DNA from: Octopus vulgaris
Lineage: Eukaryota
DNA length: 64,000 nt
Assembly: GCA_951406725.2 (NCBI GenBank)
Contig: OX597837.1
Span: 7,130,001-7,194,000 of the forward strand
Direction of reading: 5' to 3'
Shown here piece by piece: positions 14,470 through 59,342 of this stretch. Numbering within the stretch: the stretch's first letter is position 1; the number at the start of each line of letters is the position of its first letter. A model generated the notes under the pieces. The model was given only the letters and a program-made list of their open reading frames with translations. It did not search any database and was not told the origin of the DNA. The position numbers and the translations under genes were made by a program.

Positions 14470-14667
14470 ACTTGGTAACCTTACCGATGCTGGTGCCACG
14501 TAAAAGGCACCCGCATACTCTAAAGTGGTTGGTGTTGGGAAGGGCATCCAGCCATAGGAACCATGCCGAAACAGGCAAACCTTCCCGAAGTTCGCTGGCC
14601 TGCTTACTCCTGCCAAACCGCCCGACCCTTGCCATCTTGAAAACCAGGCGTTAAACGATGATGATGA
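14470..14667 (+). mobile_element. SINE/LINE 3' fragment with (GAT)n tail, probably RTE-related
   Basis: ggtgccacgtaaaaggcacc...ggaagggcatccagcc...gcgttaaacgatgatgatga. Confidence 0.5.
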
Positions 14668-14729
14668 ACATATTACACACACAAACACACACACATATTT
14701 TAATTGTGTGGTGATATATACCGTGTGTA

Positions 14730-15250
14730 CATATGAAATGTTTGCGATCATGTATATCCTGCCTTTTTATGAAATGTGTACGATCATGTATATCCTGCCT
14801 TTTTATGAAATGCGTGCGATCATAAATATCCTGCTTTTTTATGAAATGTGTGCGATCATATATATCCTGCCTTTTTATGAAATGTATGCGATCCTGTCTT
14901 CCTGTGAAATGTGTTCGATCCTGTGTATCCTGCCTTTTTATGAAATGTGTGCGATCCTGTATATCCTGTCTTTTTATGAAATGTGTGCGATTCTGTATAT
15001 CCTACCTATTTATGGAATGTGTGCGATCCTGTATATCCTGCCTTTTTATGAAATGTATTCGATTCTGTATATCCTGCCTTTTCAAGAAATGTGTACGATC
15101 CTGTCTTCCTGTGAAATATGTGCGATCATGTATATCTTGTCTTCCTATGAAATGTATGCGACCGTATATCTCCTGTCTTTCTACGAAATGTGTTTTATCT
15201 TGTATCTCCTGTCTTCCAATGAAATGTATGCGATCATGTATATCTTGTCA
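14730..15250 (+). repeat. 36-bp minisatellite with 27-bp variants
   Basis: Unit tatgaaatgtgtgcgatcctgtatatcctgcctttt, ~15 copies; explains ORFs 14708 and 14841. Confidence 0.9.
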
Positions 15251-15257
15251 CTTGTAA

Positions 15258-15665
15258 AGGCGGCGAGCTGGCAGAAACGTTAGCACGCCGGGCGAAGTAC
15301 TTCGCGGTATTTCGCCCGTTGCTACGTTCTGAGTTCAAATTCCACCGAGGTCGACTTCACATTTCATCCTTTCGGGGTCGATAAATTAAGTACCAGTTGC
15401 GTACTGGGGTCGATCAAATCTACTGCTGCCCTCCCCCCAAATTTCAGGCCTTGTACCTTGAGTACAAAGAAAAGAAACGCAAGAGTACCGGAAAAATTAT
15501 GCCTTGCGCTATTTCTTCTGACTCTCTACGTTCCGAGTTCAAATTCTGCCAGGGCCAACTTTGACTTTCTTCCACATCCCTGGTTCTGATGAATCCAAAC
15601 GCCAGTCGATTAACCCCACATTCCCTCAAAATTCCAATCCTTTTTTGCCAAATTAAAAACCATTA
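15258..15665 (+). mobile_element. Two family B SINE copies (ATT-tail type), second degenerate
   Basis: aggcggcgagctggcagaaacgttagcacgccggg...tttcatcctttcggggtcgataaattaagtacc...aaatttcaggccttgt. Confidence 0.8.
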
Positions 15666-22017: not shown

Positions 22018-22607
22018 AAGGCGGCGAGCTGGCAGAAACGTTAGCACGCCGGGTGAAATGCTTAGCGGTATTTCGTCTGCCGTTACGTTGTGAGTTCAAA
22101 TTCCGCCAAGGTCGACTTTGCCTTTCATCCTCTCGGGGTCGATAAATTAAGGACCAATTACGCACTAGGGTCGTTGTAATCGACTTAATCCGTTTGTCTG
22201 TCCTTGTTTGTCCCCTCTGTGTTTAGCCCCTTGTGGGTAGTAAAGAAACAGGTATTTCGTCTGCCGCTACGTTCTGAGTTCAAATTCTCCGAGGTCAACT
22301 TTGCCTTTGATCCTCTCAGGATAGATTAAATAAGTATCAGTTATGCACTGGGGTCGATGTAATCGGCTTAATCCGTGTGTCTATCCTTGTTTGTCCTCTC
22401 TGCGTTTAGCCTCTTGTGGGTAGTAACGAAATAGGTATTTCGTCTGCCGTTACGTTCTAAGTTCAAATTCCGCCGAGGTCGACTCTGCCTTTCATCCTTT
22501 CGGGGTCGATAAATTAAGTAGCAGTTACACACTGGGGTCGACGTAATCGACTTAATCCCTTTGTTTGTCTCCTCTATGTTTAGCCCCTTGTGGGCAATAA
22601 AGAAATA
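22018..22607 (+). mobile_element. Family B SINE trimer (Tx1-tail type) with 16-bp TSD
   Basis: TSD agaatattattgcaat at 22002-22017 and 22608-22623; internal junctions at 22250/1 and 22433/4. Confidence 0.9.
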
Positions 22608-23719: not shown

Positions 23720-24338
23720 GGCTCTGAGCTGTGAAAATCGTTCGAGCGTCGAACAAAATGCTTAGTATTTTTTTCCTGCTCTTCACCCTCCGAGATCTAC
23801 TTTACTTTTCATCCTTTGAGGTCGATAAAATAAATCCAAATTAATCGGAATCGATGTAATCGAATTATCTTCCCTCGTCCCTCCCCCCACCTTCCCCGAC
23901 TCCTTCTAAAATTACTGGCCCTGTTTTGTCAAAAAGAGATTATTCTAAGGCAACGCTCTGGCAGAGTCGTAAGCGCGCCAGACAAAATGCTTTGCGGTAT
24001 TTCGTCTGCTGCTACGTTCTGAGTTCAAATTCCTCCTTTCTGGGTCGATAAATTAAGTACCTGTTACGCACTGGAGTCGATGTAATCGACATAATCCTTT
24101 TGACTGTCCGTGTTTGTCCTCTCTGTGTTTAACCCTTTGTGGGTAGTTAAGAAATAGGTATTTCGTTTGCTGCTACGTTCTGAGTTCAAATTCCTCTGAG
24201 GTCGACCTGGCCTTTCATTCTTTCAGGTGTCAATAAAATAAGAACTAGTTGTACACTAAGGTCGATGTAATCGTCTTAACCCCTCCTCTAAGATTGCTGC
24301 CCTTGTGGCAAAATTTGAAATAACATTATTATTATTTA
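23720..24338 (+). mobile_element. Family B SINE copies, including a nested dimer (23948-24335)
   Basis: Junction gaaata|ggtatttcgtttgc at 24156/7; the downstream unit ends in the ATT-type tail. Confidence 0.75.
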
Positions 24339-26912: not shown

Positions 26913-26981
26913 TTAAATATGAACTCCGAAGAGTCATACATACCCCGGTTGAGAACCAATGTTGTAGAAAGTGGCTATGCC

Positions 26982-27197
26982 TATTTCTTTACTATCCACA
27001 AGGGGCTAAACACAGAGGGGACAAACAAGGACAGACAAACGGACTAAGTTGATTATATCGAATCCAGTGCATAACTGGTACTTAATATATCGACCCGAAA
27101 GGCAAAGTCGACCTCGGCGGAATTTGAACTCAGAACGTAACAGCAGACGAAATACCGCTGAGCATTTCGCCCGGCGTGCTAACGATTCTGCTAGCTC
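26982..27197 (-). mobile_element. Family B SINE (Tx1-tail type) monomer with ~21-bp TSD
   Basis: TSD gttgtagaaagtggctatgcc (26961-26981) / gttgtagaaagtgactatacc (27198-27218). Confidence 0.85.
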
Positions 27198-27699
27198 GTT
27201 GTAGAAAGTGACTATACCGTGAACAGCGGGTGGTTGATTGAGACATTAACGAAAACATTTAGAACAGCCCTTAAACCTCTTGGGTCACCCAGACCGATTC
27301 ATCGACCCATGTGATACAGGCTGAGAGGATTTTGACGCCGATCCATCGGCCCAAATGACACAAGCTGAAATGACATTGAGACCGATCCATCGGCCCGATG
27401 AAACAAATGTGAAATGGTTGGTTTTGAAGTGTTATAGCTAATCAGAGATCGTCTATCAGTCGATTTATCTGAATAGATAAAAAAAAATTGGGGTTTTTTG
27501 GCTATACTTAACAAAACATTGTGTCTCAAAAGAGTTAGCAAGAAGGGGCAGAATAAGAATCTGTAAATGACCCTCATTCACAATGATAATGTCGAAGTAC
27601 ATAAAGATTTGGCAGCAAATCAGGAAAACGACATATTGGACTTGTCAGTGGTTCCACCGTACAATCTGCTCCGATTTCCACCTGTTTGGTTCAGTGAAA

Positions 27700-31272: not shown

Positions 31273-31280
31273 CACTATAG

Positions 31281-31863
31281 GGCGGCGAGCTGCAGAATTG
31301 TTAGCACGTCGGGCGAAACGCTTAGTGGTATTTCGTCTGTCTTTATGTTCTGAGTTCAAATTCCGCCGAAGTCGACTTTGCCTTTCATCCTTTCGGGGTC
31401 GATAAATTAAGTACCAGTTACGCACTGGGGTCGATATAATCGACTTAATCCGTTTGTCTGTCCTTGTTTGTCCTCTCTGCGTTTAGCCCCTTGTGGGTTG
31501 TAAAGAAATAGGTATTTCGTCTGCCGCTACGTTCTGAGTTCAAATTCCGCCGAGGTCGACTTTGCTTTTCATCCTTTCGGGGACGATTAAATACATACCA
31601 GTTACGCATTGGGGTCGATATAATCGACTTAATCCGTTTGTCTGTCCCCTCTGTGTTTAGCCCCTTGTGGGTTGTAAAGAAATAGGTATTTCGTCTGCCG
31701 CTACGTTCTGAGTTCAAACTCCGCCGAGGTCGACTTTGCCTTTCATCCTTTCGAGCTCGATAAATTAAGTACCAGTTACGCATTGTGGTCGATATAATCG
31801 ACTTAATCTGTTTGTCTGTCCTTGTTTGTCCCCTCTGTGTTTAGCCCCTTGTGGGTAGTAAAG
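31281..31863 (+). mobile_element. Family B SINE trimer (Tx1-tail type)
   Basis: Junctions gaaata|ggtatttcgtctgccg at 31510/1 and 31684/5. Confidence 0.9.
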
Positions 31864-32252
31864 ATTAAAAATTCTTTGAGAATATGTAAGAGTTCAAACC
31901 ATGCCTCTATTTTATTATTTTTTATCTCAAAACATTAACATTATTTCTATTATACTTTATCCTGGTAAATCTTCTTCACCGATGATATCATATTGCGCCC
32001 GTGGGACATTTACACACCAGTTGTCGCAAACCAAGCGATCAAGTACTAGATTTCTTTTTAGCTATTTTTTTAAATTTAGAACCTTTACTTAAAAACATTC
32101 TTATAAAATGTTTTCTGTTGTTACAGAATAAAAGCACGATATTTAATTCCATTTTATAACACCAAAAATATTTGGCACTTTACGTTTCTATTGGCGAATC
32201 ATCCGATTTTGCCTCCCACTTCTCTCTCTCTCTGTTGTTCTTCTTCAGTCTT

Positions 32253-33789: not shown

Positions 33790-33956
33790 TTTATTCTTAT
33801 TTGCTTCAGGCATTTCACTGCGACCATGCTGGAGCACTGCCTTTAGTCGAACAAATTGATCTTAGGGCTTATTCTATGTAAGTCTAGTACTTATTCTTTC
33901 GTTCTCTTTTGCCGAACCGCTAAGTTACGGGGACCTAAACCGCTAAGTTACGGGGA
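33790..33956 (-). mobile_element. Family A SINE 3' fragment
   Basis: Reverse-complement tail; ends in a local duplication of ccgctaagttacgggga. Confidence 0.75.
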
Positions 33957-34945
33957 TCTCACTTCGAGCCCTATCGATGGTGCCTTCTCACTTCGACCCC
34001 TACCGATGGTGCCTTCTCACTTCGAACCCTACCGATGGTACCTTCTCACTTCGACCCCTACGGATGGTGCCTTCTCACTTCGACCCCTACGGATGGTGCC
34101 TTCTCACTTCGACCCCTACCGATGGTACCTTCTCACTTCGACCCCTACGGATGGTGCCTTCTCACTTCGACCCCTACCGATGGCGCCTTCTCACTTCGAC
34201 CCTTACCGATGGCGCCTTCTCACTTCGATCCCCACCAATGGCGTCTTCTGATTCGAGCCCCACCAATGGCGCCTTCTCACTTCGACCCCTACCGATGGCG
34301 CCTTCTCACTTCGACCCCTACAGATGGTACCTTCTCACTTCGAACCCTACCGATGGTACCTTCTCACTTCGACCCCTACGGATGGTGCCTTCTCACTTCG
34401 AACCCTACCAATGGCGCCTTCTCACTTCGACCCTTACCGATGGCGCCTTCTCACTTCGAGCCCCACCAATGGCGTCTTCTGATTCGAGCCCCACCAATGG
34501 CGCCTTCTCACTTTGACCCCTACCGATGGCGTCTTCTGATTCGAGCCCCACCAATGGCGCCTTCTCACTTCGACCCCCACCAATGGCGCCTTCTCACTTC
34601 GACCCTTACCGATGGCGCCTTCTCACTTCGACCCCTACCGATGGCGTCTTCTGATTCAAGCCCCACCAATGGCGCCTTCTCACTTCGACCCCTACCGATG
34701 GCGCCTTCTCACTTCGACCCCTACCGATGGCGCCTTCTCACTTCGACCCCTACGGATGGTGCCTTCTCACTTCGAACCCTACCGACGGCGCCTTCTCACT
34801 TCGAGCCCCACCGACGGCGCCTTCTCACTTCGAGCCCCACCGACGGCGCCTTCTCACTTTGACCCCCACCGATAGCGCCTTCTCACTTCGACCCCTACCG
34901 TTGTCGCCGTCTCACTTAGGGCCTCACAGATGACGCCTTCTCGCT
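33957..34945 (+). repeat. 29-bp GC-rich minisatellite, ~33 copies
   Basis: Unit cttctcacttcgacccctaccgatggcgc with interspersed variant units and no unique spacers. Confidence 0.95.
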
Positions 34946-39834: not shown

Positions 39835-39872
39835 GGCGTAGGAGTAGCTGTGTGGTAAGTAGCTTGCTAACC
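39835..39872 (+). mobile_element. Family A SINE 5' end, split by the Tx1 LINE
   Basis: ggcgtaggagtagctgtgtggtaagtagcttgctaacc; continues at 45308. Confidence 0.85.
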
Positions 39873-40261
39873 TCACTGACAGAAGAGTGACTTTGCCTAC
39901 CGTACTACGGTTTGGACGCGTTTTCTTCCCGGTAAGAGTTTTGCTGTGTTGTTAATTGTTGAATTCCTACTACTGAAAATTTGCCTTTAAACGTTGCTGA
40001 ACTGTCTTGTTCTCCGGTTTTACCGGGAAATAATTGAATAATTTCTTACCGTTGAACTGTTAGCCACTGTGGCTTTTTATTTACGTGACTATATATAGTC
40101 CTGCCAGACTATTTTCGTGCCCCTCCCCCGAATGGGGGTGGGAATTGGAATTTTTGAACTGCTTTTTTGAACTACTTTGGAAGAAAAACTTTCTATAGGT
40201 TTCCCAGTTTCGTGGGAAACCAATATTCGTAATTTTTGTGTTGTCTAATTTCAACAGAATA

Positions 40262-41658
40262 ATGTCTGTTGAAATTATTCACGAAAGTAGTGCTCTTGAG
40301 GAGAGCAATGTTAAAAAATTTTCTGAGGTAGCCGCAGTGGCTACCGAGAAGATTGACATCGATGTCAACCAGCTCGTCGAGCTATTTAAAAGAATGCAAG
40401 AGGAGGGTGGTGATGTTAAAATATCACCCTCCGCCAGTATCGTGGAGACCGAGAAGCGGACCGTAGTGTTTAAAACTTTCTGTCCACAAAGCAGAAGGTT
40501 CAAACACTTTGAAAAAAGCACCATCGAGAAATGCCTGTCCCCGATTTGGAAGGACATCGTGTACGTCGCCAGGGGACGGGCATATGGCACTGTGGATGTC
40601 CGCTTCTCGGGGGAAGAAATGGCCCGCGGGCATTCTGTGAACCCCCTAAAAACCAAGGAGGTGGTACTTTTTCCAAGCTATAGGGGACGCAGGTCGTCCC
40701 GGGTCAGGATTGTAGAAGCCCCGCCGGACGTAGATCCGGTAGAGGTAGTGGCCGCCCTGTTATATAAAAGGGCGGACAAAATAAAAATACTAGAAGTAAC
40801 ATGCTCTACCCCTCGATTTTGGCTCGGGCGTAACATTAATATATTAATTCAAGGAACAGCGGAGGACCTGCAGCTCCTTCCTGAGAGGGTGCTCGTGGGC
40901 GAGAACGTAGCCCTCAGGGTACAGGTCGAAGGCCGAAAACCCACCTGTTACGCCTGCAACAAAAAGGGCCACATTCGTGTAGACTGTCCAGACAAGCAAA
41001 AGAAACCGCAGACACCAGGCCCCTCAGATAATAAAAAAGTCCCTACCCTTGCAAACACACCTACCCCTACAAAAACAAAAAATCCCACTCCTGCTGTTAC
41101 GGTGCCAACCCCAAAACAGACTGAAGAAAAAACCCAGCCCTCGCACTCACAAACCCCTACACTATTAAAACCTCCCACCCCCTAAAAACTGCGGCGCCTA
41201 CCGAACAAACTATTGCTACCACAGACGATACCATGGAGGTATCAGAGGGGGGATTTACACCAGTTCGTAAAAGAATTCGTGCAGCATCCCCGTCCACATC
41301 CCCTACAAAAAATAATAAAAACAAAGACACACCACAGACACGGAAAAAAAAATCCCGCTCAACTGGCCCAGAAAAAGAAGACAAAAAAGAAAATGAACTC
41401 ATATTAATTGAATTCGACACACAAGACAAATACATAAACGATATTGTGGTTCAGCATCAGTCAGCAAGACTGTACAACAAATACAAAGATCGAAATAGAC
41501 ACGCGTGGATTGCGGAAACAACGTTCAAACAATTAAGACAGACACCCAAACGCCATCCGGCATATCGCGAACTTGCCGGACTATCTGAAGAAAGAGGAGA
41601 AAGAAGGGGCCCACAAACGTGTGGTGAGGTCGGCCCCCACCTCTCCAACGAAATGTAA
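40262..41658 (+). CDS. LINE ORF1 (gag-like nucleic-acid-binding protein), one frameshift near 41180
   Basis: CCHC knuckle CYACNKKGHIRVDC followed by a Pro/Thr/Lys-rich linker; ORF 40238-41185 continues in the frame of 41233-41658 across a C-run. Confidence 0.8.
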
Positions 41659-41678
41659 GTAGAACCTTTACTTTTGTA

Positions 41679-44600
41679 ATGGCTTCGCTTAACCTTGGTT
41701 GTTTAAATGTGCGTGGTCTGAGTTCGAAGTGGAAGCAGGCTTGTTTCCTCGACGACCTCAGATCACATGATATACATGTGATGGTTGCTACAGAGACCAA
41801 GCTGGACAGCCTACAAACCTTCTCGCCTCTCCTGAATGGCTACGAGAAAATCATGTCTCCTGGCCAGACCGGAGGGCGAGGGGGCGTAGTGGTACTGATC
41901 CGTAAAGACTTGGCTCTACAGACAAGTACAGTCTATGTAGACCCAGAAGGTGGGCTGGTCGTCCTTGATGTGACATACAGCAGTAAGGCCTTCAGGTTAA
42001 TCGGACTCTATGCACCTTGTGCTAGAGGTTTCCAAACTGATTTTTATCGGCGCCTAGAGGGCTTTCTCGTGACGTCGAAGACTTTAGTGATATTAGGGGA
42101 CTTTAATGCTATCGTTGACGTACACATCGATAGCGTTGGCTCGATCTATAGGAAAGTGAACTCACGTCTCGTGGATCTGCTTAAGCGGTTTCAGCTAGCA
42201 GATCGTTACAGACTTGACCATCCGAACGTCCCAGAGTGGACCTGGATGAGTGGCGACGGAAGGTTCAAGTCTTATCTAGACAGGATAGTGATAAGAACTA
42301 GAGATAAGTCTAGTTTTAGTTGTCCACAGCTCGTCCAGGTGCCCTATACTGACCATAGAATGGTCACGTGTAGGCTGGACATAGATAGCACACTTAAGAT
42401 AGGAACCGGCTACTGGAAGCTGAACAAGTCTATTTTGACACGCGAGGCATACCGTAGCCGGATTAAGGTGTTAGTGCAGAGGGCGTTAACCGGAGCCGTG
42501 GTTAATAACCGGTGGTGGTTCACCCTCAAAAGAGCCATTCGATTCGAGTCCATTAGATTTAGTAAACAACTAAGACTAGATAGGGCTAGAATAGAAGGGC
42601 AACTAGTTAAGAACTTAGAGGAGGCGTTGAGGTTGGGCTCTGCATCTCACATTTTAGCGGCGAGAACGGCATTAGACCGTCACCTCAAAACCAAACATGA
42701 GGGATGTAGAGTCCGGGCTAAAGTACGAGCATTGGGCCGTGAGGGAATTAATGTTGCCGGATGGGCCCGTACGATAGAAACACAGCGTGGAAACGATGCC
42801 ACAATTGGGTCTCTTGTTGATGAAAACGGATGCACGATCAAGAAGCAGGACGAGATGTGTGAGGCACTCCACAAGCACTTCGCCGAGTTGTTCGGGAGGT
42901 GCGGGACGCTGGATCATGGTGAGGCCCTTAGGGACTTCCTGTCTGGTGGCCCGCGCCTCTCGACACGAGAGGCTGAGTGCTGTGAAGGGCCAATCACAGC
43001 CGAGGAAGTAATCGAGGTGTTGGGCAAGTGCCCCGGGGAGAAGTCGCCGGGTCTCGATGGTCTGCCCTATGAATTTTATAGAAGTATGCCAAACTTGTTC
43101 GGGCACCTGCTGGCTAGCGTCTACGCCAACTGGCAGCAGAATGGGAGAATTCCCAAGTCTGCGAGCCGGGGGGCGGTGACCTTGATCAGGAAGGACCCGA
43201 ACAAGGGGGACGAGATAGGGAACTTCAGGCCCATAACTCTGTTAAACACAGAGTTAAAGATTCTGGCCAAGGTGCTAGCAAAAAGGTTGGCGCGGGTCGT
43301 GGACAAACTTGTCGGGGAAGCGCAAACGTGCGCTATCCCCGGCAGAACGATCCACGACAATCTTCACCTTATACGCTACTCCTTAGAGAGGGTGGGGAAG
43401 CTTTCTGGCGCAGGGGGAGCACTGGTACATTTAGACCAGTCCAAAGCATTTGATAGGGTCGACCATCGGTACCTGGCGGCGGTCCTCGGAGAGGCTGGCC
43501 TAGGCCCGACCTTTCGAGGTTGGATCGCTGCTTTGTATAGCGACATCGAGTCTGTAGTCAAGGTGAACGGTTCCTTTTCGAAGCCGTTCAGGATCGAGCG
43601 TTCAGTTCGTCAAGGGTGTCCCCTGTCCTCGCTCCTATACGTATTGGCTCTTGAGCCTTTGCTGCGGAAGTTGGAGGCACTAGGGGGCGCGCGCATGATC
43701 TATGGTGTGGAAGAGGAGCTACGGCGTATGCGGATGACACCTCCATCATCGTGGCAGACGAAGGCCAGCTTCCAGTGGTGGAAGAGGCCATAAAAAGCTA
43801 CGAGGCGGTGGCAGGAGCAAAGGTTAACAAGGACAAGTCGGTCGGTTTGCAACTCGGCACCTGGAGGGGCAAGCCGATGCCGTCCAATAACGTCGTAGGG
43901 CGTTGGACGGAAGGTCCTGTTAAGCTGCTCGGAGTCTGGTTCGGGCCAGACCTCCAGATTGAGAAAAATTGGAGTGAGGTGGCCAACAAGGTGACCGCTC
44001 TAACCCAGACCTGGTCTGGGCGGGCGTTATCCCTGCTAGGGAAGGCGGAGGTGGTGCAGATGTTTATAGCATCAGTAATCACCTACCGTCTGACCGTGGT
44101 GCCTTGCCCCGATTTGTGGCTGAACAAGTTGGAGAGAATCCTTTTCCGATTTTTGTGGAAAGGAGGAAAGCCACTTGTAAAGCGCTCTGTCTGCTGCCAG
44201 AAACCGCTAAAGGGTGGGCTAGGGATGCCTTGGCTGAGGATGCGAAAACTCGCGTTAAGGTTGAGGCACCTCTGGCTTTACCTGGATGGAGAGCAGGTGT
44301 GGTCGCCGCACGTCCGGTTCTACCTTCCCCAGTTAACATCCCTAACGGACATCGGTGCATGGATCAAGCGGAGACCTAAACTGAGTGAATGGCATTTGGA
44401 GTGCCGTCAGGCGCTCCAGCTACTATCTCGGGTGGGCAACGCCGGCAACAGGAGTTCCACCACGGATTTCTATAGCGGGTTAGTGGAGATTAAGTCCGAA
44501 GACGCCTTGGGGGAGACCCTGGGCTACGATGAAAATCAGTTGATCAACCTGTTCCGGAGGACGTTCGGGCCGGGGTATCTGGATAATTACCAGAAATCCC

Positions 44601-45079
44601 TAGCCTGGCAGTGTTTCCGTGCGGCTTTACCTGTTCGCGACAAGCTGTCAAGGCACGGTAGTGCCGTCTCGCCGACATGCCCGCGATGTGAGCAGGATAG
44701 GGAGACCGTCTTGCACGCATTCGTGGAGTGTCCGGAGTTATCGGGACTTATAGCTTTTGTAGAACAACTGTTGTCAGTGATGGGAAGAGTACAGCTATCA
44801 GCTGAGTCTATCATCGAGATTGTGCCGCCCCCTTTCCTTAACAGGGAAAGAAAGGCTTGTTTTTTCTGTGTAGTAGCCATACTGAAAGAAACAGTATGGA
44901 AGACGCGTACGAAAGGTATAGTGACAGGCACCTTTGTCTCCGGCCAGGGGTTGATTAACTTTTTTAGTTACCACCTCAGTAGCAAAATCAGGCTGGAGAA
45001 GAGGTGTCTGTCACGAGATATGTTTGTGAAAAGATGGAAGCCTGTGGCATACAAGATGGGTATGTTTGGCACCAGGTAA
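41679..45079 (+). CDS. LINE ORF2: AP endonuclease + reverse transcriptase + C-terminal Zn finger, one frameshift near 43685-43700
   Basis: APE motifs LNVRGL, ETK, GDFN, LDRI, TDH; RT motifs KSPGLDG, FRPITLLN, LDQSKAFD, RQGCPLS; AYADD encoded at ~43724-43738 in the downstream frame; GGLG and CPRC..ETVLHAFVEC. Confidence 0.92.
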
Positions 45080-45307
45080 GTGTGACCGGATCAGAAAGTA
45101 AAGGTTCTACCCGGATGGCTGGGTGTCCGTCCTTCGACATGATCATTAATATTTTTAAACATTGCCTTCGTAAAATTCATTGTTTATAATCTTATCCGTA
45201 ATTTCATTCGAAAATTGTAACTGTGTTAAGCTACTTCACCCTTTATATTTGTCTGTCCTTGTTTGTCCCCTCTTTGTAAATGCCTAAATGGCAAATTATA
45301 TGAAATA

Positions 45308-45456
45308 AAGTAGCTTGCTTACCAACCACATGGTTCCGGATTCAATCCCACTGCGTGGCAGCTTGAGTAAGTGTCTTCTACTATATCCTCTGGCCGACCA
45401 AAGCCTTGTGAGTGGATTTGGTAGACGGAAACTGAAAGAAGCCCGTCGAATATATG

Positions 45457-45487
<31 letters not shown>

Positions 45488-45690
45488 CTGTGCTTGTCCC
45501 CCCAACATCGCTTGACAACCGGTGTTGGTGTGTTTACGTCCCTGTAACTTAGCGGTTCAGCAAAAGAGTACGATAATATAAATACTAGGCTTACAAAAAA
45601 TAAGTCCTGGGGTTGATTTACTCGACTAAAGGTGGTACTCCAGCTTGGTCGCAGTCAAATGACTGAAACAAGTAAAAAAAAATAGAGTAA
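45308..45690 (+). mobile_element. Family A SINE remainder after the LINE insertion
   Basis: Resumes aagtagcttgcttaccaaccacatggttcc... through the tail gactgaaacaagtaaa. Confidence 0.9.
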
Positions 45691-59127: not shown

Positions 59128-59342
59128 AGGCGGCGAGCTGGCAGAATTTTTAGGATGCAGGACGAAATGCTTAGCGGTATTTCGCCGGTAGCTACGTTCT
59201 GAGTTCAAATTTCGCTGAGGTCGACTTTGCCTTTCATCCTTTCGGGGTCAATAAACTGAGTAGCAGTGAAACACTGGGGTCGATGTAATCGACTAAGTCC
59301 CCCCACCGCAAAATGTCAGGTCTTGTGCCTATAATAGAAAGA

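What the first reader, a model, noticed from the sequence alone, without database searches (positions are those of the whole stretch)
45248..45307. Tx1 LINE 3' end is shared with a SINE subfamily, including a covarying stem-loop
Seen: LINE 45248-45273 (tttgtctgtccttgtttgtcccctct) is identical over 26 bp to the SINE tail (22193-22218, 31811-31836). Seven nt later both form a 4-bp stem with a 5-nt loop of different sequence (LINE tgcc-taaat-ggca; SINE gccc-cttgt-ggg(c/t)). Both end in gaaata without poly(A). Established: stringent LINEs (L2, CR1, RTE) recognise a 3' stem-loop shared with partner SINEs, whereas mammalian L1 relies on poly(A). Inference: a stringent Tx1 LINE-SINE partnership, which I believe is rarely documented; the true partner may be a sister family of this LINE.
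Basis: partly seen in the sequence, partly recalled or inferred. Interest (0 to 1): 0.85.

Follow-up and report, generated by a model that had tools for sequence, protein, structure and literature searches.

The report
SINE-targeting LINE shares hairpin tail
A family of jumping genes that lands at one exact base inside one short repeat shares its hairpin-forming tail with many one-gene passengers and with a second short repeat, and the tail is likely the signal its enzyme reads, although that second repeat was likely moved by a sister family rather than by this one.

Summary
The 26-nt match is real and belongs to the whole LINE family (47 of 47 distinct copies), so it is not a stray SINE piece. 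The LINE (39873-45307, L1 group, Tx1-like) sits at one fixed base in the head of a different SINE (SINE-B): 30 of 30 5' flanks and 47 of 47 3' flanks. About 1,400 junctions genome-wide end in the same hairpin plus 'aaata' at that site; 20 of 30 sampled are ORF1-only passengers. Across these families the 4-bp stem shows compensatory changes. The tail-sharing SINE (SINE-A) mostly ignores the LINE's site (about 0.2% of tails), often follows its own head in tandem, and is older than this family. Its last 36 nt match a more distant, dispersed ORF2 lineage better (30 vs 23 identities). Best reading: stringent 3' recognition in an animal L1/Tx1 lineage, with SINE-A moved by a sister family. No transposition assay was run. 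This scan noted SINE-head targeting in other genomes before; shared L1-clade SINE tails are rare in print.

The parts
39835..39856 (+). 5' part of the host SINE-B head (A-box-like motif read by eye), cut by the LINE insertion
39857..39872 (+). 5' copy of the target sequence (aagtagcttgctaacc); about the first 9-12 nt are target duplication, and the last ones appear to be carried by the element's own 5' end
39873..40261 (+). LINE 5' UTR
40262..41658 (+). ORF1 with a CCHC zinc knuckle; split over two frames near 41.15 kb in this copy
41679..45079 (+). ORF2: APE endonuclease, reverse transcriptase, zf-RVT; one frameshift near 43.7 kb in this copy; other copies have open 1,140-1,150-aa frames
45248..45273 (+). 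26-nt pyrimidine-rich segment identical to the SINE-A tail
45281..45293 (+). 4-bp hairpin with 5-nt loop; the stem covaries across sister families
45302..45307 (+). LINE 3' terminus gaaata, no poly(A); with the first target bases it forms AATAAA
45308..45698 (+). 3' copy of the target and the rest of host SINE-B (body, TA/TG tract, a different hairpin-and-short-repeat tail)
22020..22607 (+). SINE-A tandem trimer (head, then three units with the shared tail) flanked by a 16-nt duplication starting agaat
31277..31868 (+). second SINE-A tandem trimer with the shared tail
26977..27198 (-). SINE-A copy with a third exact copy of the 26-mer

Best explanation
The last ~60 nt (pyrimidine tract, 4-bp hairpin, gaaata) are a conserved tail shared by a family of L1/Tx1-type LINEs, their ORF1-only passengers and SINE-A, and they are likely the RNA signal that this lineage's ORF2 protein binds to start target-primed reverse transcription, with SINE-A likely moved in trans by an older, less site-specific sister family. 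Shown: the window's family and its close sisters insert at one base in the SINE-B head; ORF1-only elements with unrelated UTRs keep the same terminal hairpin and the same site; the stem covaries; SINE-A carries the tail and has long target duplications. Inferred: that ORF2p binds the hairpin; that the endonuclease sets the site; that SINE-A took its tail from a member of this lineage and uses a sister's ORF2p that prefers short GGTAT/TATAT/AGAA starts, which also occur in SINE-A's own head and so build tandem arrays.
For: Family-wide tail: 47 of 47 distinct 3' ends; 19 of 20 diverged ORF2 hits (73-92% aa) keep the tail and run into the SINE-B site although their UTR bodies differ. Site specificity: 30 of 30 5' flanks from a query without flank (26 SINE-B heads, 4 tails of other elements). 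Hairpin plus aaata plus site: 1,443 genome hits vs 0 for the reversed control; of 30 examined, 6 have ORF2, 20 have ORF1-like sequence within 1.5 kb of the tail and no ORF2, 4 have neither; full ORF1-only elements are 1.9-2.3 kb. In 30 loci picked by the junction alone, 26 have a stem of 4 or more pairs, with T-A/C-G/G-C swaps at the outer pair and C-G to T-A at the third; 9 double-sided cells, reached by 0 of 500 shuffles. SINE-A solitary copies: duplication of 8 nt or more in 37 of 61 vs 2.2 in shuffled pairings, mostly 10-20 nt; truncated LINE-lineage copies have 6-15 nt. 357 SINE-A tails abut the SINE-B site, 20 of 30 examined with the SINE-B head upstream. A dispersed ORF2 lineage (L202, about 52% aa) ends like SINE-A: 30 identities with its last 36 nt vs 23 for the window LINE; related ends occur in contigs of public runs.
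Against: No LINE carrying the whole SINE-A tail was found: 30 of 58 hits, 28 of 28 and 30 of 94 were SINE variants or truncations, apart from one SINE-B-type LINE. L202 is one short, old copy and lacks the 26-mer. The hairpin is weak: folding z-scores -1.5 to +0.7; RNAalifold predicts no consensus pairs; only 2 of 4 pairs change on both sides, which 170 of 500 shuffles reach. The 33 rows of that alignment were 30 of 48 listed tails plus 3 window rows; many had been chosen by a pattern that fixes GCC/GGC, and the 18 left out include four with a broken pair (L126, L134, L300, L302), so 92% paired is inflated. SINE-A's use of the SINE-B site is only about 6-fold over what a shared AGAA start would give (rough: the denominator rests on 8 counts). 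No binding or transposition test was run.
Confidence: 0.65

Rival explanations
1. One machinery with RNA-guided landing: the same lineage's ORF2p would move the LINE, the ORF1-only elements and SINE-A, and the few read-through bases at each RNA's 3' end would pair with the nicked DNA and choose the site (aagtag for LINE transcripts, ggtat or agaa for SINE-A transcripts from arrays).
For: Each element's preferred target start equals what usually follows its own 3' end: old SINE-A AGAA in 16 of 33 non-self flanks, young SINE-A GGTA in 28 of 74; 39 of 75 background tails abut SINE-A's own head at two fixed points. The LINE end plus target forms AATAAA, so cleavage would fall inside the target (sequence; inference). 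The LINE 5' end carries target-like bases whatever the target allele. R1Bm is reported to need downstream target sequence for accurate reverse transcription (PMC7265360, passages). No LINE end was found at SINE-A's self sites.
Against: Truncated copies show the target's own allele on both sides (L338, L354, L331, L310). Dispersed lineages with a SINE-A-like end exist. Young SINE-A also uses TATA starts (13 of 74), which read-through would not explain. Those patterns required a LINE-type 'tgaaata' end and would miss a partner ending like the SINE.
Confidence: 0.15
2. The tail in SINE-A is a passenger: it was picked up once by template switch or recombination, and SINE-A is moved by an unrelated LINE clade that reads only its last few bases.
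For: The SINE-A body carries several other tails, so tail swaps are common. SINE-A uses the LINE's site in only about 0.2% of cases, and 0 junctions have the LINE's exact register. Long duplications with a biased first base are also described for RTE-moved SINEs (PMC6007223, abstract).
Against: The whole 58-nt tail, including hairpin and gaaata end, is kept in both SINE-A subfamilies and ends at the same base as the LINE lineage; an estimated 170,000 copies carry it; it is enriched at the LINE's exact site.
Confidence: 0.13
3. The match is chance, or a SINE fragment inserted in this one LINE copy.
For: The 26-mer is low in complexity (T/C/G only).
Against: 47 of 47 family copies and diverged subfamilies carry it; chance expectation about 1e-11.
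Confidence: 0.01

Closest known systems
Tx1-Mar LINEs and SINEU of crocodilians (Kojima 2015, PMC4494074; parts 1-4 of 5 read)
   Same: Tx1-type LINE that targets another transposon; tandem insertions around a duplication; a SINE with weak preference for the same target, inferred to be moved in trans.
   Different: SINEU end in poly(A) and no LINE sharing the SINEU-1 3' end was found; the target is a Mariner, not a SINE head; no hairpin and no ORF1-only riders were described in the parts read.
Target-specific Tx1 clade: Tx1 in Tx1D, Keno in U2 snRNA, Kibi/Koshi in microsatellites (as summarised in PMC4494074), Dewa in tRNA spacers (PMC3706591, passage)
   Same: APE-RT-zinc ORF2, CCHC ORF1, one fixed insertion site in a multicopy sequence.
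   Different: The target here is one base just after the A-box-like motif of a SINE head; shared by dozens of tail variants.
Stringent L1-clade LINE/SINE pairs: maize ZmSINE2/3 with LINE1-1_ZM, Chlamydomonas SINEX-3_CR with L1-1_CR (PMC3747384 section 1.4 and passages, PMC3472496 passages)
   Same: L1-clade LINE with a conserved 3' hairpin showing compensatory changes, shared with SINEs.
   Different: [quoted passage not shown] This case is in an animal, lacks poly(A) and is site-specific.
HAL1 (half-L1) ORF1-only elements (recalled; the paper was not held)
   Same: ORF1-only non-autonomous elements of about 2 kb related to L1-group LINEs.
   Different: Here they end in the hairpin tail without poly(A) and are site-specific, forming trains of up to four.
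Stringent L2/CR1 pairs such as eel UnaL2/UnaSINE (PMC4176376 search listing; PMC3747384 passages)
   Same: 3' stem-loop shared by LINE and SINE.
   Different: Different clade; function shown there by assay, only inferred here.

Membership tests
L1 group non-LTR retrotransposon | ORF2 with APE endonuclease, RT and C-terminal zinc domain | tested here: met
   Pfam PF03372, PF00078, PF13966
L1 group non-LTR retrotransposon | ORF2 closer to L1 than to R2-type elements | tested here: met
   Best solved-structure match is human L1 ORF2p, E 1e-65, vs R2 at 1e-19; L2, CR1 and RTE proteins are not among the hits, so they were not compared
Tx1 clade | RT groups with named Tx1 elements on a tree | not tested
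   No named Tx1 reference came back; no tree was built
Tx1 clade | ORF1 with CCHC zinc knuckle (recalled feature) | tested here: met
   PF00098 at ORF1 residues 228-243
Tx1 clade | Target specificity (over 20% of flanks in one repeat, criterion of PMC4494074) | tested here: met
   47 of 47 3' flanks and 30 of 30 5' flanks
Stringent LINE/SINE pair | Shared 3' terminal sequence | tested here: met
   46 identities over the 58-nt SINE tail, same end point
Stringent LINE/SINE pair | Conserved 3' stem-loop with compensatory changes | tested here: met
   Met across LINE and ORF1-only families; weak energy, no RNAalifold consensus; LINE-vs-SINE-A change depends on register
Stringent LINE/SINE pair | Same insertion signature and overlapping age for this LINE family and SINE-A | tested here: not met
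   About 0.2% of SINE-A tails at the LINE site; about 99% vs 90% copy identity
Stringent LINE/SINE pair | Tail needed for retrotransposition | not testable with these tools
   Needs a cell assay
tRNA-derived SINE (SINE-A, SINE-B) | [quoted passage not shown] | tested here: inconclusive
   No ARAGORN or Rfam tRNA hit; boxes read by eye against a recalled consensus
HAL1-like ORF1-only element | ORF1 related to L1-group ORF1, no ORF2, full length about 2 kb | tested here: met
   26% identity to window ORF1 over 145 aa including the CCHC motif, E 3e-13; no Pfam hit in two tested; 1.9-2.3 kb between junctions

The most novel reading that the evidence does not exclude
One Tx1-type enzyme reads a common hairpin tail but is steered to different landing pads by the last few read-through bases of each RNA: LINE and ORF1-only RNAs go to the SINE-B head, while SINE-A RNAs go to their own head and build tandem arrays. 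This would be natural RNA-programmed targeting in an APE-type LINE.
Probability: 0.15. Interest if true: 0.85.

Novelty: new variant of a known kind. Interest (0 to 1): 0.62.

Why it matters
Animal L1-group elements are mostly taken to read poly(A); a review counts only 3 SINEs with L1-clade tails (PMC3747384). Here an animal lineage has no poly(A) in its DNA copies, a covarying hairpin kept across autonomous LINEs and ORF1-only riders, and a SINE with the same tail. That bears on whether stringent recognition is ancestral in the L1 clade. Young copies with open ORF2 frames and a target present in roughly 200,000 copies make the system directly testable, and tail sharing without target sharing lets RNA recognition and site choice be studied apart. 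A compact site-specific LINE that carries cargo in trans is also of interest for gene insertion tools.

Tried and rejected
Tail as target-site remnant (LINE inserted inside SINE-A): rejected, since the flanks are SINE-B and the tail is internal to all copies. LINE plus SINE-B as one composite element: rejected, since SINE-B alleles vary between loci while the LINE is near-identical, outer flanks differ, and truncated copies have their own duplications. SINE-A arrays as local duplications: mostly rejected; adjacent units are 0.910 alike vs 0.899 for random pairs, though 5 of 22 pairs exceed the 95th percentile; amplification from multimeric masters or template jumps was not excluded. RNA-templated 3' junction: 3 of 30 5' flanks differ in the first 9 nt, too few to decide. 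Partner searches by pattern found no LINE with the full SINE-A tail. Expression: no RNA holder listed; contigs of four runs guessed to be RNA cover most of the LINE but show neither strand nor ends. ARAGORN and Rfam gave no tRNA match for either head. Protein searches gave no clade name. One row of alignment A2 was given in the wrong orientation and one was offset; both were ignored. L409 and L213 have SINE-A-like ends but no ORF2 match. Literature: nine searches that ran plus one on read-through listed no paper on this family, its SINE target or its tail; Repbase, Dfam, subscription papers and the supplements of PMC13282606, PMC3472496 and PMC4494074 were not seen and may hold these families.

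Full report
Observation. The 26-nt identity is exact at 45248-45273 vs 22193-22218 and 31811-31836, with a third copy at 27039 on the minus strand; the chance expectation is about 1e-11. The two cited SINE copies do not end in gaaata, though most copies do. The host is likely an octopod: the closest named ORF2 relative is from Argonauta hians, 64% over the RT region (inference).

The LINE. It spans 39873-45307, with a CCHC ORF1 and an APE-RT-zf ORF2, each frameshifted once in this copy. The best solved-structure match is human L1 ORF2p. No named Tx1 reference was returned, so Tx1 rests on anatomy and target specificity, not on a tree. The family is young: 40 of 40 scored 3' hits are about 100% identical, and several copies have open 1,140-1,150-aa frames.

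The LINE sits inside the head of a second SINE, SINE-B. With a query holding no flank, 30 of 30 5' ends follow the same site: 26 behind a SINE-B head, 4 behind the tail of another element. Of 47 distinct 3' flanks (only one search's query held 3 flank bases), 47 begin at that site; 44 run on into SINE-B and 3 into a tandem element. SINE-B alleles differ between loci, so these are separate insertions. In 18 paired ends the 5' side always ends in ctaacc whatever the 3' allele, so the element carries target-like bases at its 5' end and rebuilds the site. Truncated copies have duplications of 6-15 nt. Trains of three LINEs and of four shorter elements occur.

The tail is a lineage signal. Of 20 ORF2 hits at 73-92% aa identity, 19 keep the tail and the site while the UTR body varies. 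A pattern for hairpin, aaata and site gives 1,443 hits vs 0 for the control; of 30 examined, 6 carry ORF2, 20 are ORF1-only and 4 show neither. A pattern on the junction alone gives 1,001 hits; 26 of the 30 examined have a stem of 4 or more pairs and 29 have 3 or more, including CGCC/GGCG, TGTC/GACA and GGCT/AGCC. On a MAFFT alignment of 33 rows, 9 cells change on both sides (0 of 500 shuffles), but only 2 pairs do (170 of 500), the rows were selected (30 of 48 listed tails; four with broken pairs among those dropped), RNAalifold predicts nothing and folding z-scores are weak. The hairpin is small but conserved as a structure; that it binds ORF2p is inferred.

LINE versus SINE-A. In most sister subfamilies GCC lies in register with the SINE's GCC, so the SINE stem is the same stem with one more pair, not a covariant. 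SINE-A solitary copies have long duplications (37 of 61 at 8 nt or more; 2.2 when shuffled). In 664 kb of unselected DNA, 29 of 75 tails abut SINE-A's own head at one point, 10 at another, 36 elsewhere, one of these at the SINE-B site; a further 200 kb gave 8 self, 13 other, 0 SINE-B. Genome-wide, 0 tails join the site in the LINE's register and 357 join it one base shifted, mostly the older SINE-A subfamily and the aagaag allele (95 of the first 100 listed); 20 of 30 examined have the SINE-B head upstream. Against about 170,000 tails (scaled from 37 in 600 kb) this is about 0.2%, roughly 6-fold over a shared AGAA start. Non-self targets begin AGAA for the older subfamily (16 of 33) and GGTA or TATA for the younger (28 and 13 of 74). 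Adjacent array units are hardly more alike than random copies, which fits repeated insertion into the head. SINE-A copies are about 90% alike, so their spread predates the window's family.

The likely partner. Pattern searches found no LINE with the full SINE-A tail. One background locus, L202, holds a truncated ORF2 end at about 52% aa identity whose tail ends accc-ttat-gggt-aataaagaaata away from SINE-B. It matches 30 of SINE-A's last 36 nt; the window LINE matches 23. Against L202 the outer pair is A-U vs G-C or G-U in SINE-A, a plausible true covariation. Contigs of public runs show relatives with other flanks. L420 (44% aa) and L409 end similarly. SINE-A thus matches the site-specific branch in the first half of its tail and the dispersed branch in the second; the donor was probably a family not sampled here.

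Mechanism. Likely steps: ORF2p binds the tail hairpin, nicks the target, and starts cDNA at gaaata, leaving a 6-20 nt duplication and no poly(A); ORF1-only elements and SINE-A borrow it through the tail. Site choice by the endonuclease with different partners (0.65) is preferred over choice by RNA read-through pairing (0.15) and over a passenger tail (0.13).

Comparison. Tx1 elements that target other transposons, and a SINE moved by them, are known from crocodilians, but those SINEs end in poly(A) and SINEU-1 shares no 3' end with a LINE (PMC4494074, parts 1-4 of 5 read). Hairpin-tail L1/SINE pairs are known from grasses and an alga, 3 cases among over 800 L1-clade LINEs (PMC3747384 section 1.4 and passages; PMC3472496 passages). 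A 2026 octopus repeat annotation lists 13 recently active L1-Tx1 families and does not hold the words 'target' or 'nested' in its main text (PMC13282606, first third read and word search). Passages of PMC4758252, PMC5786205, PMC11481361 and PMC3706591 and the abstracts of PMC6007223 and PMC7265360 (plus passages of the latter) were also seen. Earlier notes of this scan describe LINEs targeting SINE heads in three other genomes, so that habit alone is not unique; none was on this genome or sequence. Verdict: a real feature and a new variant of a known kind; interest 0.62.

Noticed in passing
L321 (G000:C1:29271000-29280999): Four ORF1-only elements of about 2 kb in a head-to-tail train, each starting with a rebuilt target site.
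   Followed up: partly
L328-L329 (G000:C9:2663000-2682000, minus): Three full-length copies of the window's LINE family in tandem inside one SINE-B.
   Followed up: partly
window 24270-24335, 59294-59340 and others: The SINE-A body carries several other tails ending in (ATT)n whose hairpins share the loop cttgt with swapped stems (tgcc/ggca, tggc/gcca, aggc/gcct); their LINE partners are unknown.
   Followed up: no
window 22050-22080 and 22245-22258: SINE-A's self-insertion point lies on the 3' arm of a strong head hairpin, and the tail end gaaata is complementary to tatttc just after the junction.
   Followed up: no
L202:3087-3700 (G000:C29:20003087-20003700, minus): The truncated dispersed LINE lies about 100 nt downstream of a histone H4 gene in a histone cluster (H3, H4, H2B frames nearby).
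   Followed up: partly
L259, L313/L327: Elements at the SINE-B site whose upstream sequence matches neither ORF1 nor ORF2 queries and share only the hairpin end; possible further passengers.
   Followed up: no
L213:1990-2291; L409:4422-4700 (minus): Non-SINE-A sequences ending in agcc-loop-ggct and aataa(a/g)gaaa, with no ORF2 match; possible short passengers of the dispersed lineage.
   Followed up: partly
window 45440-45490 and SINE-B copies: SINE-B has an internal TA/TG tract and a different hairpin-and-short-repeat tail; SINE-A also inserts antisense into that TA tract (L221, L224).
   Followed up: no
window 33939-34862 and 14558-15283: Minisatellite-like tandem repeats that give long open frames.
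   Followed up: no
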